Below, in pieces: positions 1 to 18,797 of a stretch of DNA of 20,000 bases. A program made the position numbers and the translations under genes. A model generated the notes under the pieces. It was not told the DNA's origin and made no database searches. It worked only from the letters and a program-made list of their open reading frames with translations. This stretch comes from an uncultured virus (IMG/VR IMGVR_UViG_3300025390_000008) (Duplodnaviria; Heunggongvirae; Uroviricota; Caudoviricetes). The DNA lies in IMG/VR virus record IMGVR_UViG_3300025390_000008; one strand, written 5' to 3'. Positions within the stretch are counted from its first letter, which is position 1. Each line of letters begins with the position of its first letter.

Positions 1-1437
1 CAGCAACAGGGCCAACAACAGGCTGCAAACCAAGCGCGTCAGACCCAAGCCGGTGCCTTTGGTGGTAGCCGTGCCGCCGTGGAAGATGCCCTGCAGAACC
101 AATCAAACCAGCTGGCCATGTCCAACCTGATTGGTCAAGGTTACAACACTGCCTACGGTCAGGCAGCTCAGCAGTTCAACGCCCAGCAACAGGCTAACCT
201 GCAAGCACAGCAAGCCAACCAACAAGCTGGTCTTACCGTGGGTCAGCAGAACCTTGGAGCTAACTTACAGACTCAGAATCTGGGCGCTACGTTGGGCCAG
301 CAAGCCGCTCTGGCAAACCAGTCAAACCAACAGCAAGCCAATTTGCAGAATCTGTCGGCTAACTTACAAACTCAAGGCTTACAGGCTCAGACTGGTTTAC
401 AGGCTCAGCAGTCAAATCAATCGGCCAACATGCAAGCTGGTCTGGCAAATCAACAGATGGGCTACAACACTGGTCTGCAGAATGCCCAGTTGGCTCAGCA
501 AGCTGCTTTGGCTAACCAGTCTTTGGCTGGTCAGTACGGTTTGCAAAATGCGTCTATGGCTCAGCAAACTGGCATCGCTAATCTGTCGAACCAACAGGCT
601 GCCAACTTGGCTAACCAGCAATACGCCAACCAATTTGGCTTGGCTAATCAGGCTGCACAAAATCAGTTCTCTCTGGCCAACCAAGCTCTGGCTGGTCAGT
701 ATGGTTTACAGCAAGGTCAGTTCAATCAAGCGGCCAACATGAACACCGCTGCCAACCAGCAGGCGGCTAACCTTGCCAATCAGCAAATGGGCTACAACGT
801 TGGCAATACCAACTTGCAGGCTTTGCTCGGCGTTCAGAGCTTGGGATCCGGTCAGAACATGCAATCGCAGTTGGCCAACCAAAGCACCAATTTGGCAACG
901 CAACAAGCACAGCAGGCGGCTAACCAGTTTGGCTATTCGCAACAAATGCAAAACGCTTTGAATGCTGCCAACTACGGTCAGCAAGCTAATGCGCTTAATG
1001 CCAACCAGCAGCAGTTTGGTGCCAACTATTACATGCAGGGTCAGCAAGCGGCCAATACGGCGGCAGCTAACTTGGGTAACTTGGGTAACACTCAGTATCA
1101 ACAGCAGACTGGTATTGCTAACTTGCAGAACCAGTTGGGCGCTCAACAGCAACAGTACCAACAAAACTTGGATACTGCTGCTTACCAAAACTACCTCAAC
1201 CAACAACAGTTGCCATATCAGCAGCTCAGCTTCTTGAACAGCATCATGAATGCTATGCCAACCAGTGGAAGCACTACCAGCATCTACTCCAATCCTTCGC
1301 CCATTTCTATTGCGGCTGGTTTGGGTACAGCGGCTATTGGTGCTAGTAAACTTGGCGGCAAGAAGGGCGGCGGCGTAGTAGAGGGCGGTATGCGTAAGGG
1401 CGGCTTGGCTGCACTGGCTGTTTCCAAATTGCACTAA
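1..1437 (+). CDS. Gln/Ala/Asn-rich internal virion (DNA ejection/pilot-type) protein, 5'-truncated by the window edge
   Basis: Frame is open from base 1 (QQQGQQQAANQARQTQAGAFGGSRAAVE...), so GTG79 is not the true start. AGAFGGSR motif, many Q-A-x-L-A-N-Q repeats, Gly-rich hydrophobic C-terminus and K-x-GG tail resemble podovirus ejection proteins. First of three large co-oriented genes. Confidence 0.7.
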   Translation, partial: QQQGQQQAANQARQTQAGAFGGSRAAVEDALQNQSNQLAMSNLIGQGYNTAYGQAAQQFNAQQQANLQAQQANQQAGLTVGQQNLGANLQTQNLGATLGQQAALANQSNQQQANLQNLSANLQTQGLQAQTGLQAQQSNQSANMQAGLANQQMGYNTGLQNAQLAQQAALANQSLAGQYGLQNASMAQQTGIANLSNQQAANLANQQYANQFGLANQAAQNQFSLANQALAGQYGLQQGQFNQAANMNTAANQQAANLANQQMGYNVGNTNLQALLGVQSLGSGQNMQSQLANQSTNLATQQAQQAANQFGYSQQMQNALNAANYGQQANALNANQQQFGANYYMQGQQAANTAAANLGNLGNTQYQQQTGIANLQNQLGAQQQQYQQNLDTAAYQNYLNQQQLPYQQLSFLNSIMNAMPTSGSTTSIYSNPSPISIAAGLGTAAIGASKLGGKKGGGVVEGGMRKGGLAALAVSKLH

Positions 1438-1446
1438 GGATTAAAC

Positions 1447-3285
1447 ATGGCGACTTCACCTAACGCGATGATGGGACAGGTGGCACCTGGTGCTCCGTCA
1501 AATTTATCTCCTTCTGTCATTGCTCAGCTGCAGCAGGAAATGATGGTTATGCCGCTGGACCAGCTTCAGCAGTATGCCCAACAACACATGGACGACCCCG
1601 TCTACGGTCCTACGGTTGTATCGATGGCGTCGTATGTCGCCAACATGAAGAAGTCTGCCCAGGCTCCTCAAGTTAACGCTACCCAGCCTACCGTGGCCCA
1701 ACAGGCCGTGCAAAACATTGCTCCTCAACAAGCGCCTCAAGGTATGCCCATGCAGGCTCCTCAGGCGCGCCCTACCCAAGGACCGGTAACGCCTGCCCTG
1801 CCGGAAGATCAGGGTATTGGTCAGCTGATGGCCAAGAACATTGAGAACATGGCTGGCGGCGGTATTGTTGGTTATGCGGGCGGTGGTCATGTTCCAAGCT
1901 ATGCCGGAAGCACTGACGGTAGTTTGGTAACAGGGACGAGTACTGGAGATATCAACTCTCGGTTCTCCAACTTGGCCTCGCAGGTAAATCAAGCTCAGAA
2001 TCAATTGGCGGGCGCTTATGCCTCTGGCGATCCTCAGTCCATATCCCTGTATCAATCTCGTCTAGCAGATCTGAAATCTCAACTGAATAATCAGGCTGGT
2101 AATCAGGCGGACCTATTGCTTAGGCAGAATCCTCAACCAATGGGTGCAGCCATTCCTACTACGGCTCCTGCAACGGCGGCGGCTATGGCGGCTCCTCCTG
2201 GTGAAGCTAGTAATGCGTCGCCTACTACGCCTGCGCCAGCCCCTGCTGCTGCACCGGCAACACCCGGAGCAACTGGTAATATTACCAGCGGCAACTCAGC
2301 AATGAGTCAAGGTTTGGGATCGTTTGTATCGCCCACCGGTAAGATGATTGCAGATGCCAAGAAAGCCTTGGGTGATGATGCTAATATGACTTTGAAAGAT
2401 CACGTTGCTCAGGCCCAAGGTATGCTGCCTCAGGTATATAGCTCTGATGATGCTGATCTTGAGATCCAAGCACAGAAGTTTAGAGATGCTGTGGGCGGTG
2501 ATCCTGCATTCAAGAAAGACCTTGACCGACTGGATAAGTTGGATAGCAAGTTGGAAAAGAACAAGCAAGATTCTGTTGGAATCAATACCTTGTTGGCTGG
2601 CTTGAGCATGATCAGGTCTGGTAATCCTTGGGAGGCTATTGCACAAGGTGCGGGCACTGGTCTCAAGAGTTACAAAGATGATATGGACAAGATTGACAAA
2701 GCCCAAGAAGAGCATGAAAAGATGCGTCAGAACTTGGATGTTGCGGCTATGGCTAACAACATGGGCTTTACCCGTATGGCTGCTGACAGCGTTAAGGAAG
2801 CCAAGTCGGCTCAGGTTCGCTCGGCTGAAGCTGCTTTGAGTGCGGGCTCTCATGCTTTTGATGCTGAGCAGCAACGCATGACTACTTTGGCAGGCGAAAA
2901 TATTCGCGGTCAGTATGGTCTGCAGCAAGCGGCAATTGGTGCTAATGCTCCGTCTCAAGAAATCAAAACCTTGTCGGCATTCGCAAGCAATCCGCAGTTG
3001 GCTGAGCAATACAAAAACTCGCCTCAGTATCAGGCCCAGTTGCGGAATGATATTGTGAGCGCCATGAATACTGCACAAAAGACGCTTGGTGATTTGACTG
3101 CCAGCGAAGATGACCGCGCAGAGGCTCGCAAGAAGATTGTTGGCTACCAGAACCAGCTTCAAGCAATGTTCAATCAAAATGCACCATTACCGGCTGGCCT
3201 GCCGACTGGCGCAAAGTTTGTGGGCACCAGCGGTGGCAAGCGCGTATATGAATTGCCAAACGGTAAGCAAGTGGTTGAACAATAA
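1447..3285 (+). CDS. Putative internal virion/ejection protein (612 aa)
   Basis: RBS AAGGA before ATG1447; MAGGGIVGYAGGG motifs; Pro/Ala linker and helical/coiled-coil C-half; lies between the pilot-like and giant virion genes. Confidence 0.65.
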   Translation: MATSPNAMMGQVAPGAPSNLSPSVIAQLQQEMMVMPLDQLQQYAQQHMDDPVYGPTVVSMASYVANMKKSAQAPQVNATQPTVAQQAVQNIAPQQAPQGMPMQAPQARPTQGPVTPALPEDQGIGQLMAKNIENMAGGGIVGYAGGGHVPSYAGSTDGSLVTGTSTGDINSRFSNLASQVNQAQNQLAGAYASGDPQSISLYQSRLADLKSQLNNQAGNQADLLLRQNPQPMGAAIPTTAPATAAAMAAPPGEASNASPTTPAPAPAAAPATPGATGNITSGNSAMSQGLGSFVSPTGKMIADAKKALGDDANMTLKDHVAQAQGMLPQVYSSDDADLEIQAQKFRDAVGGDPAFKKDLDRLDKLDSKLEKNKQDSVGINTLLAGLSMIRSGNPWEAIAQGAGTGLKSYKDDMDKIDKAQEEHEKMRQNLDVAAMANNMGFTRMAADSVKEAKSAQVRSAEAALSAGSHAFDAEQQRMTTLAGENIRGQYGLQQAAIGANAPSQEIKTLSAFASNPQLAEQYKNSPQYQAQLRNDIVSAMNTAQKTLGDLTASEDDRAEARKKIVGYQNQLQAMFNQNAPLPAGLPTGAKFVGTSGGKRVYELPNGKQVVEQ

Positions 3286-3296
3286 AAGGATCGGTC

Positions 3297-6200
3297 ATGC
3301 CGTTTCAAGAATTTACGGGGCAGTTGGATGCGCCTTCGATGGCCCCCAAGTGGCAAGAGTTCAATGGAACCCTTGACGATTTAACTCCCAAGGCCGTCCC
3401 CAAACCGGAGGCTCCTAAGCCACAGGCTGGTTTGATGAGCGAGCTGGAGCGCGGCGGTCATGAGATCTACTCTAATCTCCGCACGGCGCTCACTGCCCCG
3501 TTCGTTGGCTCTGATGTAGCCGCTCGGGCCGGTGCAGAGCGTGCAGAGGAATACAACAAGACTGCCGCTCCCTCGGTGGATGTGCTGGGCGATATCCAGA
3601 AAGCGTACCAAGAGAAGGGCATCCTAAGCTCTATTGGCGCTGGCTTAAAAGACCTGCCTGCTTTGGTGGGCCAGGTTGCTCCTACGGTGGCTGAGTATGG
3701 TGCTGCTGAAGCGCTGCTGCCCGTGGTTGGTCCTGCTGCTTTGTTCTTGGCTCAGCACTACGGTCAAAACGTCGCCCAGACTGCGGCCACTCAGATGGCT
3801 CAAGGTCGTGATGTGGATGTGGATTCCCTGAAGGCGCTGGGTTATGCCGTGCCTCAGGCCGCTCTGGACGTGGCACATATTTCCATTCCTCTTGGTAAGC
3901 AAGTCATCGGCAAGATCTTTGGCAGAGGCGTAGAGGAAGCTGTTGAGAAGGGTGCGATGAGCGAGGCTGAGAAGCTGGCTCAAGAGCAGCTGGCCAAGAA
4001 GAGCTTTGGCGAATCCATTCAAGACGGCCTCAAGACTGGTTTGGTCAGCGGCGTGCCCATCATGGTAGCGCAGACAGCCTTGGAACGCGCATACAACGGC
4101 GATAAGCTGTTCGACGATGATGCCCTACACCAATACGGTAGCGCTGCTTTAAGTGGCGCTCTGATGGCTCCTATGGGCGTGCTCGGTGCTTTGTCCGAGA
4201 AGAGCCAAGCTGCCAAGGCTGTAGGCGAGCGTGATTCCGCTGCCGCCAAAGCTGCTGCTGAGGCCGCTGAAGCTGAGGCAAACAAGCCTGAGAATCTGCT
4301 CAAACTGCACGAAGATTTCCAGAATGCCAAGGCGGAGCAGGCTGATCTGCGTAACCAGATTCCAAGCAAGCCTAAGAAGGATGCGCCCGAGGAAGAGGTC
4401 CAGGCTTACAACGATGCCAAGACTGCTGCCGATCAGCATTTGAACGACGTTCTCAAGCCGTTGAAGTTGGAATTTGACCAGCGCAAAGATGCCATCATGC
4501 CGGTGGTATTGGCCGACCAAACGGCCAAGATCAATGCTGCGGCTCAAGCCCAGTCGGCTATGGAGACGGCTATCCCTCAAGAGACGGCTGCTGCTCCTAT
4601 TAACAATGCCCCTCCGATTACACGCGCTACCTTGCCCGGTCGGGACATGGCCGCTCAGCTCACTGGTAACGTTGGCTTCAATCAGAACCTGTTGCAGGCT
4701 GGCCGTGAAGGCGCAGAACAGCGTGATGTTGCCACCCAGAATGCCATGCGCGTTGCTGCTGATAAACGTGCCAACCAGATCCTGAGCACGACGTTCAGCA
4801 ACGACCCTGCCATGAATATCATGAAGCAGACCTCGGCCCTGAAACAGATGGGCTATGAGGCCGTGCCGGACAAGAAGGGTAACCTGGTAGCCAAGCCTAT
4901 CGCTGAGCCCGCACCAGTTGAGGCGCCAGCACCAACTGCTCCGCTGCAAGCCAACCCTGAGACCATGCGTGCAAACTTGGAAGCACCTGCTGGCCAAGCC
5001 AATGCCGCCTTCATGCAAGCTGCCAGAGAGGCGCGTGAGGCTACTGCCAAACGTGATGCTGCCGCTCAGAAGGCGCAGGAGCAGGCTAAGCAAGCTCAGG
5101 CTAACCAAGTCCTGTCCACCACGTTTAGTCCCGATCCATCTATCAATGCGCTGCGTCAGAACGCCGCCTTGAAACAGTTGGGTTATGAGTCTGTGCTGGA
5201 TAAAAACGGCAAGCAAGTTGCTCGTCCAGTGGTAACGTTACCACCTGAGCTCGCTCCTGAGCCCGCACCAGCCCCTGCTCCGTCGCCCGTTGGTAATGCT
5301 GACGCCTTGCGCGCACGTCTGGCCACTGCTGGTAACGAAGCCAACCAGAATATGCTGCAGGCTGCCCGCGATCGACTGGCCGCCCTTGAGAAACAGAAGG
5401 CTGCCGACACTACCGCCCAAGCTCAGAACATTGTCAAGAGCACGATGAGCGCTGATCCGGCGATCGATATTGCCCGTAAGAAGAGCGCCCTGGCTGAGAT
5501 TGGCCATGAGTTGGTTCAAGATCCGAAGACCGGCGAGATTACAGCGCAACCCATCAAGGAAGCTGCTCCCGAGATGTCAGACGTTCGTAAGAATGTTTTG
5601 AGCCGTCAGTACGACGAAGAGTTCAAGAGCCTTTTCCCTGATCATGAGCCTGAGCATTTGGAACAGTTCCGCTCCATGCCTGCTGAGTCCAAGGATGCCT
5701 TCTTGCAGTTATTCTCTGATGCCAAAGAGCGTCAGACCATAGAGAATCCTTCGTTTGACGAGTTGGCATCTAAGCAGACTAAACCTGTCGCTGGGCCAAA
5801 GAACGTTCCCGAGAATCCTGATGTTGTTGAATCATCCAAAGAAAGCAAACAGCTGACTGCCGATATCAACAAGCTGAAGAACAGCAAAGACAACTTAAAG
5901 AACGCGCTGAAGGGTTCGTTGAATGCCAATGACGCTACCGATGTAAGCCCTGAGAAAGATTTCCTGCGTTACTTTGCCAGCAAAGACGGTCGAGGCCGGT
6001 CTATTTCCGAATTGGTTTCAGACAAAACGTTGGATCGTTTCTTGCCAGAAAATATGCGCCCAGGCTCTGATGACTTTGACGCTCAGGTCTCGGAGGAGTA
6101 CATCAAGCAAAAGCTGCGTGATGAGGACTACGCAACCCCTGAGGATGCACAAGAGATCAGCAGGTTGAGCGATCAGAAGTGGGAGCTGGAAAGCTATCTC

Positions 6201-9200
6201 GAAGAGCAAGAGCGTGCCAAGAAGGCCAACGAATCTGTAGCTGGAATTTCTACCGAAGTAACGCCTGAGGGTTTACCCGTACGTACAGATAATCTGTACC
6301 GTGTGCAGGGCGAGGCCAAGGGCGTGCCGGTTAACTTGGTACAAAGACTGGTTAACCAGATCAGAGAAGGCTGGGCGAATGCCCCTGAGATACAAGTTCA
6401 CGCCGATGAATCTACTTTGCCTGATCACATTCGTGCCCAAGCTGAGCGCGATAAGGTGACTGGCCAGATCCCTGGTGTCTACGATCCCAACTCCAAGATT
6501 GTTCACATCGTCAGCAGTAACTTGGCAGATGTTAAAGATCTGTTTGCCACTGTGGCCCACGAAGCAGCAGGCCACTTTGGTTTGCGCGAGATGCTGGGTG
6601 ACCAGTATGGCCGCACGATGGACAAGATCTACGAAGGCAACAAGGCCGTTCGTGAAGCTGCTGATGAGAAGCTGAAGGGCTCTAACCTGTCGCGTCAGGT
6701 GGCCACAGAAGAAGTCTTGGCGGAAATGGCTGAGAGCGAGAAGACCTCGACACCGGCTGAGCGCAGTGCCCTGAAGCAGATCTATGACACCATTCGTCGC
6801 TGGGTCTACGACAAGTTTGGTATTGGCGGGATGACCGACAATGACGTTAAGCAGATCGTTGCTAATGCCCGCAAGTTTGTGGTCGAGGGCGGTGAGAAGG
6901 GCGCTGGTAATATTACCAGTGAAGCCGTTTACCGTACCAAGTACAACCCTGGCTTCGAGAAGGCTGCTGACCTGACCAAGAAAGTCTTGTCGTCTGAGCG
7001 CCCATTCATGGAGCAGTTTAATAAGACTGCCTTTGGCCGTGCGTCGCTTGGCTGGATCCAGAAAGTCCAAGATCAATACCGTCCTTTCCTGAAGCTTACG
7101 CAACTCAAGGATGCCAATGGCCAACGGTTGATCGGCGACTCGGCTGGTAACCAGATGATGTCTGACCTGCGGTTCTATCAGCAGCGTCTGAACTTCTTGG
7201 GTGCCGTCATCCAGAACGGTGCCTTGACATTCAAGAAAGGCGTCGTGGATGGCGCTAAGCGTTCGCTCTACGAGACCGATGGCAAGGAAAGCCTGAAGCA
7301 GGTCTTTACTGAATTGCGCCCTGCAGACAAGATTACCGGCAGCCGTGAAGCTACCAATGCCTTGTATTCGCTGTGGGCTATTGCCGAGCGGGTGCGTAAG
7401 GGCGGCGCTACGCTGGAGCAGTTGAACTTTGACCCGAACATCGTCAATGCCAAGTCGCTCAAGGCGGCGATGGATGAGATTAAACAGCATCCTGAGCTGA
7501 TCAAGACGTTCGAGAGGGCCAACGAAACCTATCAGAATTTCAACTCCAACATGATGAAGTTCGCGGTGGATGCTGGTGCTATTCCCAAGGCTACTGCCGA
7601 CAAGCTGTTGTCGCGTCGGGACTACGTTCCTTACTACCGCGAAGAGCCTGATGGAACTATTTCCATGATGTCCAATGGTGAGTCGATCTTTAAGGTTGGC
7701 AACATCAAGACCCAGCCTGAGTTGAAAGCTCTGATTGGCGGCGACCAGCGGATCTTGGACTTTGCTGAGAGCTCTGTGCGTAATGCCAACATGCTGCTAA
7801 GCATGGGTATGCGTAACCAGGCGGTTAAGAATTCTATGTTTGAGCTGCAGAAGATCGGCTTAGTCGATATCCGCGACAAGGCTCCGAAGAACATGGAAAA
7901 GGCCGTGGAGTTCAAAGTCCAAGGCAAGAGCAAGTATGCCGTCTTTGACGACGCCGCTACTGAGAAGCTGAACATTCCTACCCAGTTATTCATCAAGGGC
8001 TTGGAAGGTGTTCCAACACAGATGAGCACATGGCTCAAGGTGATGAGCATTCCCAGTACCGTCCTGAAAGAAATGTTCGTTGCCAACCCCATCTCGGCAG
8101 CGCGTATCGTTTTCAAGGATACGATGTCTTCTGCCCTGGTGGCGGGCTCTGACTTTGGCAAGATCGTTGATTCCTTGCAGAGCGTTAAAGACGGTTTGAT
8201 GGTCAAGCGTGGCCTGTCGGGCGGTCAGTTGTTCACTGGCCAACCAGAAGAGATTGCCCGTGTGCTGCGTCAGGCTCAAGCCGGTGGTGTTAACGCTTCC
8301 AGCGCCTTGGCTATGGCCCATGCCTTGCACGCTCAAGCCGATGCTGCGACCCGCCAGATTCGCTATGACAGCTACCTGCATCAAGGTCTGAATGAGTTTG
8401 ACGCCAACCTGATGGCGCTGGAGTCGATGAACTTTACCAAGCGTGGTTTGTCTCCCAGCATCCATATCTTGAATGCGCTGAACCCGTTCATTAACTCTCA
8501 GATCCAAGGCGTCAATACGTTGATCGCAGCCATTCGTGGCGAGATGCCTATGCAAGAGCAGCTGCGTATTAAGCAGAAGATCCTTGCTCGCGGTGCGATG
8601 ATTGCTGGCGCGACAATGCTTTACTCTGCGCTTATGCAGGACAACAAGCACTACCGTGACGCCATGCCGGACCAGAAGTATTCCAACTGGTACATGCCCT
8701 TCCCAGGCTTGGAAGAGCCGGTAAAGATTCCAATTCCGTTTGAAGCCGGTATGCTGTTCAAGTCGGTGCCTGAGGCGATGGTCGAGCTGTTCATGAAGCA
8801 CGACAAGTCGGCGATCGACGGCCTGAAGATGACGGCCATGCGGATGATCCCCGGCCTTGAGACTTCTGCTGTGGCTCAAGCTGTTCGCCCTGGCTTGGAG
8901 GCTTACACCAATACATCCTTGCAGACTGGTGAGACGATCCAGAGCGAACGTGAGTTGAAGATGCTTCCCGGCGAACGTATCCGTCCTGGCACTTCTGGCA
9001 TTGCTCAGGAGATTGGTGGCGCTTTGAATCTGTCACCCGTCATGATCGATCACGTCATTGGTGGATACACCAGCTCGATGGGCATGGCTCTGATGCACAT
9101 TACTGATGGCATCGTTGGCTCCAAGATGCAGGGCGCTCCGGTGGCCAGCGACTTGTCTCAGACGCCTGTGATTGGTTCGCTGTTCGCTCGGGACGGCGGG

Positions 9201-9503
9201 GCTATTTTGCAGGAAGCTATGGGCAAGTTCCATGACTTGGAAGAAGTGAAGAACACTTTCACGTCTTTGAAGAATGCTGGCCAGACTGATCGGGCGATGG
9301 CTTTCTTGCGTCAACACCAAGAAGAGTATGCCAAGGCTGCGATGGCCACGTCTGCCCAGAAGCAGATTGGTCAGTTCACCAAGCAGATTGAAATGGTTGT
9401 GGCCAACAAAGACATGACCGGAGAAGAGAAGAAGCGACGCATAGACCAGATTAAGGAACAGCGCCGCGACTTTGCTGAAAAGATGTTGGCTCGGGTGAGC
9501 TAA
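3297..9503 (+). CDS. Large polyvalent virion/ejection protein (2068 aa) with zincin-like metallopeptidase (MPTase-PolyVal-like) domain and LPD38-like C-terminal region
   Basis: RBS AAGGA upstream. HEAAGHFGL at 6558-6584 followed by EEVLAEMAE. C-terminal PFINSQIQG and KIPIPFEAGMLFKSVPE resemble LPD38. Domain names recognised from memory, not searched. Confidence 0.75.
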   Translation: MPFQEFTGQLDAPSMAPKWQEFNGTLDDLTPKAVPKPEAPKPQAGLMSELERGGHEIYSNLRTALTAPFVGSDVAARAGAERAEEYNKTAAPSVDVLGDIQKAYQEKGILSSIGAGLKDLPALVGQVAPTVAEYGAAEALLPVVGPAALFLAQHYGQNVAQTAATQMAQGRDVDVDSLKALGYAVPQAALDVAHISIPLGKQVIGKIFGRGVEEAVEKGAMSEAEKLAQEQLAKKSFGESIQDGLKTGLVSGVPIMVAQTALERAYNGDKLFDDDALHQYGSAALSGALMAPMGVLGALSEKSQAAKAVGERDSAAAKAAAEAAEAEANKPENLLKLHEDFQNAKAEQADLRNQIPSKPKKDAPEEEVQAYNDAKTAADQHLNDVLKPLKLEFDQRKDAIMPVVLADQTAKINAAAQAQSAMETAIPQETAAAPINNAPPITRATLPGRDMAAQLTGNVGFNQNLLQAGREGAEQRDVATQNAMRVAADKRANQILSTTFSNDPAMNIMKQTSALKQMGYEAVPDKKGNLVAKPIAEPAPVEAPAPTAPLQANPETMRANLEAPAGQANAAFMQAAREAREATAKRDAAAQKAQEQAKQAQANQVLSTTFSPDPSINALRQNAALKQLGYESVLDKNGKQVARPVVTLPPELAPEPAPAPAPSPVGNADALRARLATAGNEANQNMLQAARDRLAALEKQKAADTTAQAQNIVKSTMSADPAIDIARKKSALAEIGHELVQDPKTGEITAQPIKEAAPEMSDVRKNVLSRQYDEEFKSLFPDHEPEHLEQFRSMPAESKDAFLQLFSDAKERQTIENPSFDELASKQTKPVAGPKNVPENPDVVESSKESKQLTADINKLKNSKDNLKNALKGSLNANDATDVSPEKDFLRYFASKDGRGRSISELVSDKTLDRFLPENMRPGSDDFDAQVSEEYIKQKLRDEDYATPEDAQEISRLSDQKWELESYLEEQERAKKANESVAGISTEVTPEGLPVRTDNLYRVQGEAKGVPVNLVQRLVNQIREGWANAPEIQVHADESTLPDHIRAQAERDKVTGQIPGVYDPNSKIVHIVSSNLADVKDLFATVAHEAAGHFGLREMLGDQYGRTMDKIYEGNKAVREAADEKLKGSNLSRQVATEEVLAEMAESEKTSTPAERSALKQIYDTIRRWVYDKFGIGGMTDNDVKQIVANARKFVVEGGEKGAGNITSEAVYRTKYNPGFEKAADLTKKVLSSERPFMEQFNKTAFGRASLGWIQKVQDQYRPFLKLTQLKDANGQRLIGDSAGNQMMSDLRFYQQRLNFLGAVIQNGALTFKKGVVDGAKRSLYETDGKESLKQVFTELRPADKITGSREATNALYSLWAIAERVRKGGATLEQLNFDPNIVNAKSLKAAMDEIKQHPELIKTFERANETYQNFNSNMMKFAVDAGAIPKATADKLLSRRDYVPYYREEPDGTISMMSNGESIFKVGNIKTQPELKALIGGDQRILDFAESSVRNANMLLSMGMRNQAVKNSMFELQKIGLVDIRDKAPKNMEKAVEFKVQGKSKYAVFDDAATEKLNIPTQLFIKGLEGVPTQMSTWLKVMSIPSTVLKEMFVANPISAARIVFKDTMSSALVAGSDFGKIVDSLQSVKDGLMVKRGLSGGQLFTGQPEEIARVLRQAQAGGVNASSALAMAHALHAQADAATRQIRYDSYLHQGLNEFDANLMALESMNFTKRGLSPSIHILNALNPFINSQIQGVNTLIAAIRGEMPMQEQLRIKQKILARGAMIAGATMLYSALMQDNKHYRDAMPDQKYSNWYMPFPGLEEPVKIPIPFEAGMLFKSVPEAMVELFMKHDKSAIDGLKMTAMRMIPGLETSAVAQAVRPGLEAYTNTSLQTGETIQSERELKMLPGERIRPGTSGIAQEIGGALNLSPVMIDHVIGGYTSSMGMALMHITDGIVGSKMQGAPVASDLSQTPVIGSLFARDGGAILQEAMGKFHDLEEVKNTFTSLKNAGQTDRAMAFLRQHQEEYAKAAMATSAQKQIGQFTKQIEMVVANKDMTGEEKKRRIDQIKEQRRDFAEKMLARVS
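4648..5570 (+). repeat. Three diverged ~90-100-aa tandem protein repeats within the 2068-aa protein
   Basis: LQAGRE..ANQILSTTFSNDP..SALKQMGYE..DKKG..AKP / MQAARE..ANQVLSTTFSPDP..AALKQLGYE..DKNG..ARP / LQAARD..AQNIVKSTMSADP..SALAEIGHE..DPKTG..AQP, separated by PAPAP-type linkers; boundaries approximate. Confidence 0.85.
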
Positions 9504-12650: not shown

Positions 12651-12707
12651 TCATTCTGTTATTCCTGTTGCATCCAGCGCCATGCGTAAGGCTTCGTCTT
12701 TAGTCAT
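12651..12707 (-). pseudogene. 18-aa mini-ORF MTKDEALRMALDATGITE, probable deleted cassette remnant
   Basis: Starts at the junction-repeat ATG with a full RBS; N-terminus parallels MKDEALKLALEAL of the adjacent gene; ends in another AGGA..ATGA junction. Confidence 0.6.
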
Positions 12708-13150
12708 GTGTTCTTCTCCTTGAGTTTGGCTTCGATGCGTCTTGCGTAAACATCAATGGTCTGTGTTGGCAAACCTTGTAAGCATTCTTGTATTTCCTCA
12801 TCCGTCAGCCCAACCCATGTGCGCTGTGGTGACAACATTTTTTGAACATCCCCACACATTACTTTGATTGCGTTGTAGCCTTCAGGATCATTGCTGTCTG
12901 CAAGTTCATAAGCCTCTTGCATAATCCTGATTCTGATGGGTTCAAAGTCTTTGTTGCTCATCCACCCCACAGGCTCCTGCACAGGTGCTGCAAGGGCTTG
13001 CTTAATGGCGGTGATGGCTTGTTGCGTCCGATATGAACCGCCCAGTCGCCACACAGCAACATCGCCACTATTTTCTCCAGTCAACATATCAGGAATACCA
13101 AACAGTTTTTCCAACGCCTCCAGCGCCAGCTTCAATGCTTCGTCTTTCAT
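12704..13150 (-). CDS. Modular hypothetical protein (DEALKLALEAL / QEPVGW / WVGLTDEE / IEAKLKEKNT)
   Basis: Bounded by junction repeats at both ends. Confidence 0.8.
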   Translation of the reverse strand: MKDEALKLALEALEKLFGIPDMLTGENSGDVAVWRLGGSYRTQQAITAIKQALAAPVQEPVGWMSNKDFEPIRIRIMQEAYELADSNDPEGYNAIKVMCGDVQKMLSPQRTWVGLTDEEIQECLQGLPTQTIDVYARRIEAKLKEKNT

Positions 13151-13392
13151 GTGTTCTTCTCCTGCGCTGCTTTCAAAATTGACCGAGCAAAATCAATGAT
13201 GCGGATTTCGGTCGGGGCGTATTTAATGGTCTTATCCCAAATTTGCATGATCTCTTCATGCGATAGGTCAATCCATTCGTCCTTTGCATTTAAGGATTTG
13301 CCCGTTATCTCCAGCATGTTTTTCAGGCGATGGAGTTCCATCTCAACGTCTTTGAGTTTTGAAATTGCCTCAAATGTTTTTTCGTGCTTCAT
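13147..13392 (-). CDS. Modular hypothetical protein (81 aa; WIDLSHEE..EKNT)
   Basis: GAGGAG RBS before ATG13392 (MKHEKTF); ends in the junction repeat. Confidence 0.75.
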   Translation of the reverse strand: MKHEKTFEAISKLKDVEMELHRLKNMLEITGKSLNAKDEWIDLSHEEIMQIWDKTIKYAPTEIRIIDFARSILKAAQEKNT

Positions 13393-13543
13393 CCCGCATC
13401 TCCTCAAGTACAGTTTTAAATTGGTTGTTGACAATATCCAGTTTCAACATTTCTAAAATACCAACTACATGTGATGCTGGCAAAGTACCGTTGTATTTCA
13501 TAACAAGATCAAATAATTCAACCATCAATGTACTAGCGTTCAT
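13370..13543 (-). CDS. Hypothetical protein (57 aa, MNASTLMVELF...)
   Basis: Start supplied by the junction repeat at 13540. Confidence 0.7.
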   Translation of the reverse strand: MNASTLMVELFDLVMKYNGTLPASHVVGILEMLKLDIVNNQFKTVLEEMRDEARKNI

Positions 13544-13761
13544 GTGTTCTTCTCCTTGAGTGGATCGGTTGTGAACTTGATGTCGCCAATGGCAACCCAA
13601 TAGCCCTCTCGGTATCCTTCGTAGTGAGCAAGCCACCTTCCGTTCAAATCTTCATCGCTCATGTGGGGAACGTCGCCTTTTTTCATTGCCTCGACGTAAG
13701 CGTTCTTTCGGTTGGTCGCATATCTTGCGGCATCAAGATGCAGTTGTTCTGATGGTGTCAT
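13540..13761 (-). CDS. Hypothetical protein (73 aa, ends LKEKNT)
   Basis: Junction repeats at both ends. Confidence 0.75.
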   Translation of the reverse strand: MTPSEQLHLDAARYATNRKNAYVEAMKKGDVPHMSDEDLNGRWLAHYEGYREGYWVAIGDIKFTTDPLKEKNT

Positions 13762-14042
13762 GTGTTCTTCTCCTCGGCGTAGCCGTTCTTTTGCTTGAGT
13801 TTGGCTTCAATGGCTTGGGTCAGATTACGCAACCACGATTCATCTTTTGCACAAGTGGTTGTTTCTTCAAGTGTTAGCATTTCCTCATCAGTCAGCCCAA
13901 CCCATTCACGCTTCTTTAGGCGCTCTCTTGCGGCGATTGCCCTAATAAACATTGACATGGGGTGCGTAACGGGATACGCAGATTCAAGACCAGCCTCTTC
14001 TCTAAACCAAGCTAGGTTTTTAACCAAGTCCTCGTCTGTCAT
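13758..14042 (-). CDS. Modular hypothetical protein (94 aa; WVGLTDEE..IEAKLKQKNGYAEEKNT)
   Basis: Junction repeats at both ends. Confidence 0.75.
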   Translation of the reverse strand: MTDEDLVKNLAWFREEAGLESAYPVTHPMSMFIRAIAARERLKKREWVGLTDEEMLTLEETTTCAKDESWLRNLTQAIEAKLKQKNGYAEEKNT

Positions 14043-14212
14043 GTGTTCTTCTCCTTTTCAACTGGCCCATTAAACAGCGCCATGCCCAGCGATCCAAGCA
14101 TGACCGCCTTCAACTCTTCGCGCTCCTCTTCTGGATATTCACTGGCGACCTCATCCATGATTTTCATAATGCTGGCGGCCACTTCTTTTGCGGGAATCGG
14201 CTTTGCGCTCAT
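14039..14212 (-). CDS. Hypothetical protein (57 aa, MSAKPIPAKEVAASIMK...VEKEKNT), absent from the ORF track
   Basis: Translated by hand: 174-nt open frame running exactly between two junction repeats. Confidence 0.75.
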   Translation of the reverse strand: MSAKPIPAKEVAASIMKIMDEVASEYPEEEREELKAVMLGSLGMALFNGPVEKEKNT

Positions 14213-14406
14213 GTGTTCTTCTCCTTGTCGTATGGCCCTACCCCCAACTCTTTGGCGATTTTGTGTTGCAACTCCGTGATTCGGTGAGTGTTGCCAGCCA
14301 CTTGTGCATTTAGCAAACGAACATAACCAAGCGTGTTTTCATTGTGGTCTACAAGCAAACGCAGCTCTTCTTGCAACCGTTTTAGATACGTTGTTGGTTT
14401 ATCCAT
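14209..14406 (-). CDS. Hypothetical coiled-coil protein (65 aa, MDKPTTY...DKEKNT)
   Basis: Start ATG lies in the variant junction repeat with AAGGAG RBS. Confidence 0.7.
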   Translation of the reverse strand: MDKPTTYLKRLQEELRLLVDHNENTLGYVRLLNAQVAGNTHRITELQHKIAKELGVGPYDKEKNT

Positions 14407-16170: not shown

Positions 16171-16464
16171 ATGGCACGTAGGGCGATGAGGCAGGACGAC
16201 AATCATGGGGCGGTGGTGACTGCTCTGCGGGCGATGGGTGCTACGGTGCATACGATCAGCCAAGGCGGTGGGATACCGGACTTGCTGGTGGGTTATAAGG
16301 GGAAGACGGCGCTGCTGGAAGTGAAGGACGGGGACAAGCCGCCGAGTGCGAGAAAGCTGACGGAGCCGGAGGAGAAGTTCTTTGCGAGCTGGTCAGGTGG
16401 TCCGCTGTTTATAGTGAACAGTCCTGAGGAGGCTTGTGCCATGCTGGAGCATCTTGGAGCGTAG
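16171..16464 (+). CDS. VRR-NUC domain nuclease (Holliday junction resolvase-like)
   Basis: GIPDLLVGYKG..LLEVK..LTEPEEKF motif; GAGGA RBS. Confidence 0.85.
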   Translation: MARRAMRQDDNHGAVVTALRAMGATVHTISQGGGIPDLLVGYKGKTALLEVKDGDKPPSARKLTEPEEKFFASWSGGPLFIVNSPEEACAMLEHLGA

Positions 16465-16483
16465 TGGAGCATTGTGGTATACT
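16445..16483 (+). promoter_or_regulatory. Extended -10 promoter (TGgTATACT) preceded by three phased TGGAGC repeats
   Basis: TGGAGC at 16445, 16455 and 16465 (10-bp period); TATACT at 16478-16483. Confidence 0.45.
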
Positions 16484-16549
16484 GAACCCGCTATTGCATT
16501 CATACATCCCTTGGTGGGTTCCACGGCTTCTTCGGAGGCCGTTTTTTTT
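16484..16549 (+). ncRNA. Candidate small antisense RNA against the exonuclease RBS/start
   Basis: Stem 16484-16493/16512-16521 with loop GCATTCATAC-A-TCC complementary to mRNA GGA-GUAUGAAUGC (16066-16078); ends in a terminator. Confidence 0.5.
16523..16549 (+). terminator. Rho-independent terminator
   Basis: ACGGCTTC-TTCG-GAGGCCGT (cUUCGg tetraloop) followed by a T run. Confidence 0.9.
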
Positions 16550-16550
16550 G

Positions 16551-16566
16551 CTGGTAATATTACCAC
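16551..16566. promoter_or_regulatory. Palindrome TGGTAATATTACCA, intergenic copy of a dispersed motif
   Basis: Perfect 14-bp palindrome covering the -35 position of TACAAT (16575-16580); other copies at 2273, 5229, 6904 and 18870, near-copies at 9504 and 15218. Confidence 0.7.
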
Positions 16567-16586
16567 TTGGCAGGTACAATTGTTCC

Positions 16587-16770
16587 TGCGTACCAAGACG
16601 CATGGGGATTGGCATAAATGGCTTACCCGCTGGAATAAACCGACAAATACCGGGTTAATGCCAAGTCGGGCTAACAGTCCCCAGTCGTGTTGGTAATGGG
16701 TTGGGGGCGAGTAGGCGAAAGCTGAAAGGGTCGCCGTGTGCAGATACACCCTGCGATGCACACACCAACA
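16587..16770 (+). ncRNA. Candidate structured RNA(s)
   Basis: Stems TGGGGATTG/CAGTCCCCA (16603-16611/16675-16683), TGTTGGT/ACCAACA (16688-16694/16764-16770), GGCGA/TCGCC and GTGTGCA/TGCACAC; AGTA-GGC-GAAA-GCT-GAA loop-E/GNRA hairpin. Confidence 0.5.
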
Positions 16771-16777
16771 ATATTTT

Positions 16778-16926
16778 CGGGTTGAAGCGTGATGTGGTGG
16801 CACGATTGCACATTGGGTGCAAAACTTCTTCTGTGGCTACTTGCTTGAACGGCAACTTCTAGAGTGCGTAATAAACAGCAGGGTGTGTTAGAAGTCTATC
16901 TGGTTCGACTCCAGACGACCCGACCA
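16778..16926 (+). tRNA. tRNA-like element (Pro-like acceptor) with ~75-nt variable-region insertion and non-canonical anticodon loop
   Basis: Acceptor CGGGTTG/CGACCCG + A + CCA; T-arm TCTGG-TTCGACT-CCAGA (16899-16915); D-arm CGT..TGG..ACG; anticodon-position stem TTGCA-CATTGGG-TGCAA; total 149 nt. Confidence 0.6.
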
Positions 16927-16927
16927 A

Positions 16928-17010
16928 TTTAGGGGGAAAGCGGATGCTGGTTACTTGTTCTAGACAGGGCACATAAAGAGACACTAGACGCAGCGAGTAC
17001 CCCACCTAAA
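16928..17010 (+). ncRNA. Candidate structured RNA with loop-E/sarcin-ricin-like motif
   Basis: GGGG-GAA (16932-16938) opposite AGTA-CCCC (16996-17003); inner helices CTGGT/ACTAG and CTTGT/ACAGG. Confidence 0.45.
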
Positions 17011-17018
17011 AAAAGTTG

Positions 17019-17045
17019 TTGACAACAGTTCTATCTGTGTATAAT
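17019..17045 (+). promoter_or_regulatory. Sigma70 promoter TTGACA-15 bp-TATAAT
   Basis: Both hexamers are perfect consensus but the spacer is short (15 bp); A-tract upstream; palindrome TGTTGACAACA (17017-17027) overlaps the -35. Confidence 0.65.
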
Positions 17046-17054
17046 CCAAAACAT

Positions 17055-17200
17055 CAACGGATTGGTAACCCGTTGTAGTTCGTAGAAACGCAACCGCAAA
17101 CCCATTGGTGAGCGGGCTTCGTCAAAGCTGGGATGTCCTGTCTACGCAGGCTCTTATGCGGCAACCAAGCCTAAAGCTCGTTCACCAATGGGTTTTTTGC
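17055..17200 (+). ncRNA. C4/CI-like antisense or attenuator module
   Basis: 22-bp stem 17098-17119/17174-17195 followed by Ts; internal TCTACG (17141-17146) and ACCAA (17164-17168) complement upstream CGTAGA (17081-17086) and TTGGT (17062-17066). Confidence 0.5.
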
Positions 17201-17205
17201 TTTTT

Positions 17206-17622
17206 AGCCGTATACCTTGATCTGGTAATTTAACGGGCACATGAACGGTTTGGCCCAGATCGAGAGCCATAAAAAGTATCGACGTGGCAAGCGCGGGTGG
17301 AGATAGCGCCAGATGTTGAGTAAACCGCCAGAACGGATCTAGGTCGAGAGATTGAGGTAATCCGGGGCAACGGCAACATTTGGGACAAGCTCGGTCAGTG
17401 CGCTAAGAAGGGGTCTCACAATGGGCCTAAATGTCTGACAGCTACGGCGGAACATTGAGAGATGACCGTAGCCAATGTAACGAAGGAAACGACCGACGTG
17501 ATATTGTTCTTCAGCCAACCCCGCGTCCTGTGGGCTAGGGGTGGGTTGTGTCCAGAGCTTCAGTCTTCTCCCTCCGTGATGTGGGTGTAATACCTTGTAT
17601 TTAGTGGCTCAGACCGATACTT
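17206..17622 (+). ncRNA. Candidate large pseudoknotted RNA upstream of the HNH gene
   Basis: No ORF of 60 aa or more in the track; many 6-10-bp helices, including long-range pairings 17264-17281 with 17600-17622. Confidence 0.5.
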
Positions 17623-17635
17623 ACCGGAGATGTAG

Positions 17636-18229
17636 ATGGCTAATCAGGTTGATAAGAGAGTTAAGGGTAGTGCCTTACCTTGGTTTATCACGTCGCGGGT
17701 CCGAGCTGATCGTCGGCTGGGGCTGAGTGAGATGGAGCAGGCGTGTCTAGCCCTGGAGGCTGAAGGTATGCCCTGCCCTGCCGATGTAAGCTTTGAGGCG
17801 TGGGTCAGGACCAACTTTGCCTATATCTGTGCTAGGTATATGGAGAAGTATCCAAAGCCTATTGGCAGTAAGGTAAAGCCCCGTCCGTCCAGGGCTCAGC
17901 GCAAGGCAGCTAGTCAACTTCGTCGTAACGCCAAGTCAGAAAAAGCGCCCGTTAAGCGGGTCGTCAAGGTGTGTGGTGTTGATGTGACCACCGACGCCTT
18001 TTTATCGACGTATGAATGGCGCAGGGTGCGTATGGAGGCGCTGAAGAAGTTTGGGCCTAAGTGTCAGTGCTGTGGAGCTACTCCCGCCCAAGGAGCTGTT
18101 ATGAACGTTGACCACATCAAGCCACGTAAGCTGTATCCAAACTTAGCCCTCAATGTAAACAATCTTCAGATCCTATGCCATGAGTGCAACCACGGTAAGG
18201 GCAATTGGGATCAAACCGACTGGCGGTAA
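17636..18229 (+). CDS. HNH endonuclease (197 aa) with N-terminal extension
   Basis: CQCCG..NVDHIKP..NNLQILCHECNHGK; GGAGA RBS. Confidence 0.92.
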   Translation: MANQVDKRVKGSALPWFITSRVRADRRLGLSEMEQACLALEAEGMPCPADVSFEAWVRTNFAYICARYMEKYPKPIGSKVKPRPSRAQRKAASQLRRNAKSEKAPVKRVVKVCGVDVTTDAFLSTYEWRRVRMEALKKFGPKCQCCGATPAQGAVMNVDHIKPRKLYPNLALNVNNLQILCHECNHGKGNWDQTDWR

Positions 18230-18258
18230 AAATAATTTGACGGAGATGAAAAAAAGTA

Positions 18259-18286
18259 TTGCATGATAATTTTCCTATGATATGCT
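18259..18286 (+). promoter_or_regulatory. Sigma70-type promoter of the rightward operon
   Basis: TTGCAT-16 bp-TATGCT with TGn extension and upstream A-tract. Confidence 0.6.
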
Positions 18287-18301
18287 ACCACCTACAAAGA
18301 C

Positions 18302-18316
18302 ACCAGAACAACCAGT
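18302..18316 (+). promoter_or_regulatory. 15-bp box ACCAGAACAACCAGT (copy 2)
   Basis: Exact match to the reverse complement of 16104-16118. Confidence 0.65.
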
Positions 18317-18341
18317 TGACAATTACAGGGAGCACGGCAAA

Positions 18342-18797
18342 ATGAGAAAACGGACAAAGCGCAAGGTGTATGCACTGGTGAACGTTATTCAGCACGCTAT
18401 GGAGGGAGCGGCGCTGGTAGACGGTAAGCCGCTGGAGGATTTAAGGACGAGGGAGTTGCTGGCTTTGGAGGCGTTCCGATCGGGCACAGCGACACCGAAT
18501 GATTGGCGGTCTATTTCGGCGATGGTGAACATTGCTGAGGTGATGGCTAAGAAGGGCGTGGGGCCAGAGGCGATTGAGGTTTGCCGAGAGGCGGAGCTTC
18601 AGTTGCTGGATGACCATGTCAGGTTTGAGAAGACCGGAAAGATGGGCACGACAGCGGGGGGCTTAACGGCTTACCGCGAGGTGTATGAATACCATGACTT
18701 GCAGAGGACATCTATCAGCAGGTCAGAGTATGAGAGGTGGATAAAGAAGACCGCTGACATTTTGAAGAGCGGCCAGGATGTAGTTCATTTAACCTAA
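18342..18797 (+). CDS. Phage hypothetical protein (151 aa, MRKRTKRK...)
   Basis: GGGAG RBS before ATG18342; the track start 18282 lies inside the -10 box. Confidence 0.75.
   Translation: MRKRTKRKVYALVNVIQHAMEGAALVDGKPLEDLRTRELLALEAFRSGTATPNDWRSISAMVNIAEVMAKKGVGPEAIEVCREAELQLLDDHVRFEKTGKMGTTAGGLTAYREVYEYHDLQRTSISRSEYERWIKKTADILKSGQDVVHLT

What the first reader, a model, noticed from the sequence alone, without database searches (positions are those of the whole stretch)
17206..18229. ~415-nt pseudoknot-rich RNA candidate abutting an HNH endonuclease gene
Seen: crossing helices AGCCGT/ACGGTT (17206-11/17245-50) with TTGATCTGG/CCAGATCGA (17217-25/17255-63). Long-range crossing pairs GAGCCATAAA/TTTA-G-TGGCTC (17264-73/17600-10) and AAGTATCG/CGATACTT (17274-81/17615-22). 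CCAGATGTTG/CAACATTTGG (17309-18/17374-83) encloses a GAGA tetraloop arm. TCGGTC/GACCGA (17391-96/17491-96) encloses pseudoknot GCTACGG/CCGTAGC plus ACATTG/CAATGT (17441-17478). Hairpin at 17512-17548. The structure ends 3 nt before the HNH RBS, and the HNH protein has a ~115-aa N-terminal extension with a K/R-rich stretch. Established: HEARO/omegaRNA partners IscB, but no RuvC motifs are apparent here. Inference: a new large ncRNA or ribozyme, an RNA-associated compact HNH nuclease or mobile element, or a replication-primer RNA next to a passenger HNH.
Basis: partly seen in the sequence, partly recalled or inferred. Interest (0 to 1): 0.82.

Follow-up and report, generated by a model that had tools for sequence, protein, structure and literature searches.

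The report
Swappable phage RNA in initiator slot
The gene-free stretch encodes a conserved, intricately folded RNA of about 370 bases, not in the Rfam catalogue, that sits where related phages keep their replication-starter gene and is swapped between close relatives for other folded RNAs, so it may start DNA copying without a starter protein; the nuclease gene behind it is an optional passenger.

Summary
Real, but not as drawn. Window 17216-17582 (+) is a non-coding RNA kept in 27 distinct phage sequences. No Rfam match. The HNH is a passenger: it follows the RNA in 10 of 24 loci, 73 of 77 HNH relatives lack this RNA, and it is not IscB. The RNA fills a slot behind a promoter and a terminator-like leader. 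Near-identical phages fill that slot with other RNAs, including Rfam Betaproteobacteria-1, and the same kind of leader heads protein initiator genes. Slot-RNA phages carry an SF2 helicase and primase (16 of 18 near-complete) and lacked the full initiators tested; initiator phages lack that pair (0 of 15). Best reading (0.45, inferred): an RNA-based replication origin. Expression and function are untested. The scan has reported similar RNAs on other phage DNA.

The parts
17019..17045 (+). Promoter-like site: TTGACA 17019-24 and TATAAT 17040-45 (15-nt spacer, so outside the scan's rule)
   Evidence: Sequence; TATAAT-like box in 5 of the other 5 rows of the six-way alignment; not listed by the consensus scan. 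Activity untested.
17055..17205 (+). Leader: small 5' hairpin (loop 17061-69), long hairpin closed by a U tract (17193-98, 17201-05); loop TTGGT 17062-66 is complementary to ACCAA 17164-68 inside the long hairpin
   Evidence: Fold; same build with changed complementary words in other loci; found before 20 of 23 family RNAs, 25 of 64 initiator genes and 12 of 200 control ORFs.
17216..17582 (+). Structured non-coding RNA, about 370 nt ('family A')
   Evidence: 21 distinct close copies including the window: 83 pairs, 98.7% of cells paired, 30 pairs with double changes, 0 of 500 shuffles as high; 6 distant copies at 63-85 bits. 114 of 117 indels are not multiples of 3; variable pairs show 151 G-U against 3 A-C cells, so non-coding and + strand.
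17216..17264 (+). P1 hairpin 17216-25/17255-64
   Evidence: 6 of 10 pairs with double changes
17266..17288 (+).
   Evidence: 2 of 5 pairs with double changes, 3 of 5 with distant members
17290..17439 (+). Pseudoknot 1: helix 17290-95/17399-404 crossed by helix 17394-98/17435-39
   Evidence: First helix: 2 pairs with double changes in 27 sequences. Second: 2 pairs changed on both sides, both in one sequence, L241.
17309..17383 (+). Long irregular arm: 17309-18/17374-83, 17325-27/17371-73, 17334-37/17361-64, 17339-45/17350-56 with GAGA loop
   Evidence: the GAGA loop is replaced in the distant subfamily
17411..17472 (+). Hairpins 17411-16/17423-28 and 17441-47/17466-72, joined by loop-loop pairing AAUG 17420-23 / CAUU 17453-56 (pseudoknot 2)
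   Evidence: Hairpins covary. The loop-loop pairing is kept in 27 of 27 with one double change, in L417 only.
17473..17582 (+). 3' domain: helix 17473-77/17502-06, hairpin 17520-23/17531-34, G-rich tract 17536-44, conserved tail
   Evidence: a G-rich tract pattern matched in 26 of 29 loci; 15 G in 31 nt at 17530-60
17636..18229 (+). HNH endonuclease, 197 aa; variable N-terminal domain, basic linker, C-terminal Cys4-HNH domain; optional passenger
   Evidence: PF01844 E 4e-8, phrog_144 E 3e-19; best solved relative 5h0m, a small HNH endonuclease; IscB model 36 bits against a cut-off of 175, HNH stretch only

Best explanation
The RNA is the replication-initiation module of a group of tailed phages that have a ParB-like protein, an SF2 helicase and a Toprim primase but no DNA polymerase A and none of the full-length initiators tested. 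Shown by comparison: it is a conserved folded RNA; it sits behind a promoter-like site and a terminator-like leader; the slot is exchanged as a cassette between close relatives; the same kind of leader heads protein initiator genes in other phages. Inferred, not shown: read-through of the leader makes the RNA, it folds while being transcribed, its G-rich 3' part stays hybridised to the template (an R-loop, as with ColE1 RNA II, recalled), and this opens the DNA for the phage helicase and primase and possibly primes the host polymerase. The HNH gene is a free-standing homing-type nuclease that rides on the cassette and may drive the swaps (inferred).
For: Cassette swaps: L303 is 98.5% identical to the window over 16676-17212, identity stops 4 nt before P1, and Rfam Betaproteobacteria-1 begins 3 nt later. 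L229 and L031 share flanks at 92-98% and differ only in RNA plus next gene. Leader before 20 of 23 family RNAs and 25 of 64 initiator genes (11 with a loop complement of 6 nt or more), against 12 of 200 control ORFs (1). Primase in 37 of 50 slot-element records and 16 of 18 near-complete ones; helicase in the same 16 of 18; initiator family phrog_6451 in 0 of 50; DNA polymerase A in 0 of 18; phrog_678 in 1 of 18. Initiator phages: primase 0 of 30, helicase 0 of 15, this RNA 0 of 15. Behind another slot family the next gene is only the C-terminal part of an initiator (also G010). Starting from the primase alone, cultured Acidovorax phage AP1 has Betaproteobacteria-1 35 nt after the primase gene. 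Precedent: mycobacteriophage prophages use RepA or a non-coding RNA at the same place (PMC7157519, abstract and passages).
Against: No experiment and no expression data. The two phage sets are probably two lineages, so the 16 of 18 against 0 of 15 contrast is close to one event, not 33; I picked the 50 and the 30 records by hand. Only four initiator profiles were tried, two of them on five genomes; the helicase itself could bind the origin. These phages have their own primase, so an RNA primer is not obviously needed. No antisense control RNA was found (simple promoter scan only). The G-rich tract is short and lies partly in a hairpin. No similarity to plasmids. Several loci with this leader show no such RNA behind it (e.g. 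L298, L332, L321). Two of 18 near-complete slot-element phages lack helicase and primase (G010, G079). In 39 of 64 initiator genes my test found no leader.
Confidence: 0.45

Rival explanations
1. A cis-acting transcription antiterminator (like HK022 put or conAn2) that modifies RNA polymerase at the head of the early operon, perhaps helped by the small protein encoded behind it.
For: Position after promoter and leader, ahead of about 10 kb of early genes. conAn2 regions are 260-600 bp, poorly conserved and act in cis (PMC8191782, passages). A small zinc-finger-like gene follows the RNA in 8 of 24 loci.
Against: Few strong terminators downstream on the same strand: 3, 0 and 0 in about 10 kb of three genomes; 14 on both strands against 10.4 expected. 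conAn2 lies downstream of its protein gene, here no gene lies between leader and RNA. It does not explain why initiator genes take the same place. In several genomes the RNA follows the primase instead of preceding it.
Confidence: 0.17
2. A free, trans-acting large RNA (GOLLD/ROOL-like cage, or a scaffold bound by the phage helicase, primase or ParB protein).
For: Size, two pseudoknots, 77% mean column identity; tRNA clusters just upstream in relatives, as for GOLLD and ROOL (PMC12286853, PMC5737381, passages).
Against: No Rfam match to either. No terminator at the 3' end; the RNA runs into the next RBS. The slot also takes short, G-tract-ending elements and protein genes.
Confidence: 0.15
3. 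A ribozyme with a group-I-like core that cuts or processes its own transcript, releasing the downstream mRNA or an RNA end used as a primer.
For: Order of helices matches the group I P3/P7/P8/P9 order (recalled): 17290-95, long arm, 17394-98, 17399-404, hairpin, 6-nt joiner, 17435-39, hairpin. P1 has a U-G pair in 20 of 21 close copies.
Against: No P6-like branch; no Rfam group I hit at E up to 1; the G-C pair at the would-be guanosine site is G-U in 2 of 6 distant members and the P1 U-G is not kept in place there; no gene is interrupted; unrelated folds fill the same slot.
Confidence: 0.13
4. An RNA-guided or RNA-dependent compact HNH nuclease.
For: Adjacency in 10 of 24 loci; most HNH relatives have some conserved non-coding block upstream; basic linker.
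Against: 14 of 24 RNA loci and all 6 distant members have no such HNH; 73 of 77 HNH loci lack this RNA; one N-terminal domain type pairs with RNA families A, B, C, D, F, H, I and with protein genes, another with A, B, C, E; HNH in 11 of 66 leader loci; no variable guide-like end; not IscB.
Confidence: 0.04

Closest known systems
RNA-based prophage origins of cluster A mycobacteriophages (PMC7157519; abstract and passages read)
   Same: A non-coding RNA region stands in for a RepA-type initiator at the same genomic place, next to partition genes.
   Different: Those are Actinobacterial prophage-plasmids with parABS; here a ParB-like gene, an SF2 helicase and a primase, no integrase in 5 of 5 records, many interchangeable RNA folds. 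No sequence comparison was made.
ColE1 RNA II pre-primer (mechanism recalled; summarised in PMC7157519 passage)
   Same: Long folded transcript, no initiator protein, G-rich 3' part.
   Different: No antisense RNA I found, no plasmid match, phage encodes its own primase and helicase.
Betaproteobacteria-1 RNA (Rfam RF02932)
   Same: Occupies the very same slot in a near-identical phage and follows the primase in phage AP1.
   Different: No sequence or model match to this RNA; the Rfam model is 120 nt.
GOLLD and ROOL RNAs (PMC12286853, PMC5737381; passages)
   Same: Large, pseudoknotted phage RNAs, often near tRNA genes.
   Different: No Rfam match; smaller; tied to a leader and an exchangeable slot.
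IscB with omega-RNA / HEARO
   Same: About 350-nt structured RNA directly before an HNH-containing gene.
   Different: Protein has only the HNH domain; pairing is optional; no Rfam HEARO match.
Group I intron core
   Same: Order of the two crossing helices and flanking hairpins.
   Different: No P6 branch, guanosine-site pair not fully kept, no interrupted gene.

Membership tests
IscB-omegaRNA (HEARO) | Protein with N-terminal PLMP domain and split RuvC around the HNH | tested here: not met
   Only HNH families in Pfam at E up to 0.1; IscB model matches residues 126-192 only, 36 of 175 bits
IscB-omegaRNA (HEARO) | RNA matches HEARO and is obligately paired with the nuclease | tested here: not met
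   No Rfam hit; HNH in 10 of 24 RNA loci
Group I intron | P3/P7 pseudoknot with P8 and P9 in order | tested here: met
   P7-like helix rests on double changes in one sequence; the group I order itself is recalled
Group I intron | P4-P6 domain with a P6 branch | tested here: not met
   One unbranched arm between the crossing helices
Group I intron | U-G pair at the 5' splice site in P1 and invariant G-C guanosine site in P7 | tested here: inconclusive
   U-G in 20 of 21 and G-C in 21 of 21 close copies; not kept in place in the 6 distant ones, G-U in 2 of them
Group I intron | Interrupts a gene; intron-less allele with joined exons | tested here: not met
   Alternative alleles carry another element, not joined flanks
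ColE1-type RNA replicon | No initiator protein in the replicon | tested here: met
   0 of 50 for phrog_6451, 1 of 18 for phrog_678, none in G003 and G004 ORF scans; other initiator families not excluded
ColE1-type RNA replicon | Antisense control RNA from an opposing promoter | tested here: inconclusive
   No minus-strand sigma-70 match in 16400-18400; a consensus scan only
ColE1-type RNA replicon | Persistent RNA-DNA hybrid, RNase H cut, Pol I extension; region sufficient for replication | not testable with these tools
   Needs experiments
GOLLD / ROOL | Match to the family covariance model | tested here: not met
   (E up to 1); distant members L408, L417, L421 also without a hit at gathering score
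Betaproteobacteria-1 (RF02932) | Match to the family covariance model | tested here: not met
conAn / put antiterminators | Several intrinsic terminators in the downstream operon | tested here: not met
   3, 0, 0 strong sites in three genomes by my own script; Rho-dependent sites not testable
conAn / put antiterminators | Read-through activity in cis | not testable with these tools
   Needs a reporter

The most novel reading that the evidence does not exclude
A widespread group of aquatic tailed phages has replaced the protein replication initiator by an RNA: ten or more unrelated, exchangeable RNA folds (this one and the orphan Betaproteobacteria-1 among them) each act as an RNA initiator that is read by a phage SF2 helicase-primase pair, with copy control by a pseudoknotted attenuator and spread by a homing HNH nuclease.
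Probability: 0.33. Interest if true: 0.88.

Novelty: new variant of a known kind. Interest (0 to 1): 0.7.

Why it matters
It adds a large, doubly pseudoknotted RNA family with strong covariation that Rfam lacks, and gives it a testable job from natural swaps rather than from shape. If the slot is an origin, an orphan Rfam motif (Betaproteobacteria-1) gains a function, a cultured phage (AP1) carries a sibling element for testing, and phages with no polymerase and no initiator get an explanation for how they start replication. It also warns that 'large RNA next to an HNH gene' in phages need not be an RNA-guided nuclease.

Tried and rejected
No whole genome is held for the window; contig L001/G002 is identical over the overlap and is counted as the window itself. 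Single-sequence folding was uninformative. No match of the region in annotated phages, plasmids or, by one 19-nt pattern, GTDB genomes, so the host is unknown; a close primase sits in a Betaproteobacteria MAG contig and in Acidovorax phage AP1. Expression: no RNA holder listed; the one run offered is probably DNA and holds only short pieces of relatives; no evidence either way. The family A model does not find the other slot families (0 slot hits in 18 loci with filters off; 0 in 73); family B covaries with another topology (11 sequences), so I do not claim one homologous superfamily, only shared short 3' motifs seen by eye. My first guess that every HNH relative has an upstream RNA was too wide: families K and M are protein genes. 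Pattern scans brought many chance hits that were dropped after profile tests (about 105 of 118; 10 of 18). The atlas gave nothing for the HNH N-terminus and only unnamed clusters for the small zinc-finger-like protein. Paper searches that found no description of this RNA. The supplement of PMC5737381 could not be read; in PMC10690425 six supplementary files had none of six short motifs, but files 1, 2 and 4 were not searched, so fragments (their candidates are at most 151 nt) may be listed there.

Full report
Setting. The window is part of a tailed phage: virion genes at 79-9503, a minus-strand block with ERF, SSB and exonuclease genes, then a plus-strand early region. IMG/VR contig L001/G002 is identical over the overlap and continues into a ParB-like gene, an SF2 helicase and a Toprim primase. 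Rfam finds nothing in the window at E up to 1 apart from one chance hit elsewhere.

Is the RNA real? Alone the sequence folds no better than shuffles (z 0.44). Pattern and profile searches gave 21 distinct close copies, the window included, and a covariance model of the core gave six more distant ones at 63-85 bits. On the MAFFT alignment of the 21, my 83-pair structure is paired in 98.7% of 1740 cells, 30 pairs change on both sides, and no shuffle of 500 or slid control comes near. On the 27-sequence alignment, which was fitted to the model and so leans towards its nested helices, 27 of 44 pairs change on both sides. Indels break frame in 114 of 117 cases and variable pairs hold 151 G-U against 3 A-C cells, so the element is non-coding and works as the plus-strand RNA. 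Conservation runs from 17216 to about 17582.

Kept: 17216-25/17255-64, 17309-18/17374-83, 17441-47/17466-72 and the inner 3' hairpin. Lost in homologs: the first pseudoknot, both long-range pairings to 17600-22, and ACATTG/CAATGT. New: hairpin 17266-70/17284-88; helix 17290-95/17399-404 crossed by 17394-98/17435-39; and a loop-loop pairing 17420-23/17453-56. The two crossing elements not in the model rest on few events: two double changes in L241 and one in L417, with all 27 rows paired. The order of these helices recalls the group I intron core (recalled), but there is no P6 branch, the guanosine-site pair is G-U in two distant members, and no gene is interrupted, so I do not file it there.

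The HNH is a passenger. Of 29 loci examined, 24 had at least 580 nt downstream: 10 have this HNH domain, 8 a small zinc-finger-like gene, 6 something else, two of them HNH remnants beside an intact RNA. Of 77 HNH loci only 4, the window's own included, have this RNA. HNH N-terminal domain types fall into clusters that cut across RNA families. The protein matches small phage HNH nucleases, and IscB only through the HNH stretch.

The slot. Upstream of the RNA lie a promoter-like site (17019-45) and a 150-nt leader: a small hairpin whose loop is complementary to a bulge in a long hairpin that ends in a U tract. Anchoring on this leader gave 66 distinct loci; what follows falls into 12 clusters and 9 singles, mostly 250-500 nt without a convincing gene, with the HNH in 11; clusters were joined by 80-nt matches and can be mosaics, and some loci show no RNA. 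Close relatives swap the content: L303 matches the window at 98.5% up to 17212 and then has Betaproteobacteria-1; L229 and L031 share both flanks and differ in RNA plus next gene. The same kind of leader stands before 25 of 64 initiator genes (11 with the loop complement) and 12 of 200 control ORFs (1), and before 20 of 23 family RNAs. One slot family is followed by an initiator reduced to its C-terminal part.

Gene content. Among 50 hand-picked slot-element records the primase occurs in 37 (16 of 18 near-complete), the helicase in the same 16 of 18, initiator family phrog_6451 in none, phrog_678 in one, DNA polymerase A in none of 18. Among 30 initiator phages the primase occurs in none; among the 15 near-complete ones neither helicase nor this RNA. 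No tyrosine integrase in five records. Coming from the primase side, two of three annotated phages fetched carry Betaproteobacteria-1 within about 1 kb after the primase, cultured phage AP1 among them; the third showed only a short family C match. These sets are related within themselves, so this is a lineage-level contrast and not many independent events.

How it most likely works. Shown: conserved fold, slot, swaps, shared leader type, gene content. Inferred: transcription through the leader yields an RNA whose G-rich 3' part stays on the template and opens an origin for the phage helicase and primase. A precedent for RNA in place of RepA exists in mycobacteriophage prophages (PMC7157519, abstract and passages), and plasmid-linked motifs were proposed for replication in PMC5737381 (passages). 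Against it: own primase, no antisense RNA seen, short G tract, limited initiator search, no expression data. I put it at 0.45; antiterminator 0.17 (PMC8191782 passages; few terminators downstream); free scaffold RNA 0.15; ribozyme 0.13; RNA-guided HNH 0.04.

Novelty. The family is absent from Rfam and from the paper searches named under Tried and rejected; unread supplements could hold fragments. The scan's own notes had no look-alike of this RNA's sequence but do report similar RNAs next to HNH genes or helicase-primase genes on other phage DNA; these are unchecked AI notes and not support. My replication idea was noted, before I saw them. Verdict: a real new RNA family, a new variant of RNA-based initiation if the inference holds; interest 0.7.

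Noticed in passing
window 16728-16927 (+): tRNA-like ends: GGGTCG pairs with CGACCC, with a T-arm (GGTTCGA loop) and ACCA at the 3' end, around a 150-nt folded insert; missed by ARAGORN and Rfam; identical in L303/L312 and shortened in L304.
   Followed up: partly
window 16591-16695 and 16932-17005 (+): Two more small closed-stem elements in the tRNA-cluster position; the word CCCCAGTCGTGTTG recurs upstream in several relatives.
   Followed up: partly
window 12704-14220 (-): Six small genes are joined by the same junction GGAGAAGAACACATGA (RBS plus overlapping stop and start), a cassette-like gene array.
   Followed up: no
L271, L273, L276 and other family B loci: A second unlisted RNA of about 450 nt in the same slot, with its own covarying helices and a likely pseudoknot.
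   Followed up: partly
L021, L024, L030, L051, L054-L073: Several shorter slot elements end in GGGGGTAGGGGG followed by a T-rich run, resembling hybrid-forming G tracts.
   Followed up: no
L085, L229, L236, L241, L415, L417, L420, L422: A 64-83 aa His/Cys protein of no known family takes the HNH's place right behind the RNA in both subfamilies; a candidate RNA- or origin-binding partner.
   Followed up: partly
L301, L324, L343 cluster; G010: Replication initiators reduced to their C-terminal domain lie just behind a slot element, as if the element replaced the DNA-binding half.
   Followed up: partly
window 17055-17205 and L007, L012, L018, L028, L430-L476: The leader is itself an unlisted RNA class with a covarying loop-bulge pseudoknot and many interchangeable sequence families.
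   Followed up: partly
window 16523-16552 (+): Strong intrinsic terminator closing the small nuclease gene at 16171-16464, upstream of the non-coding cluster.
   Followed up: no
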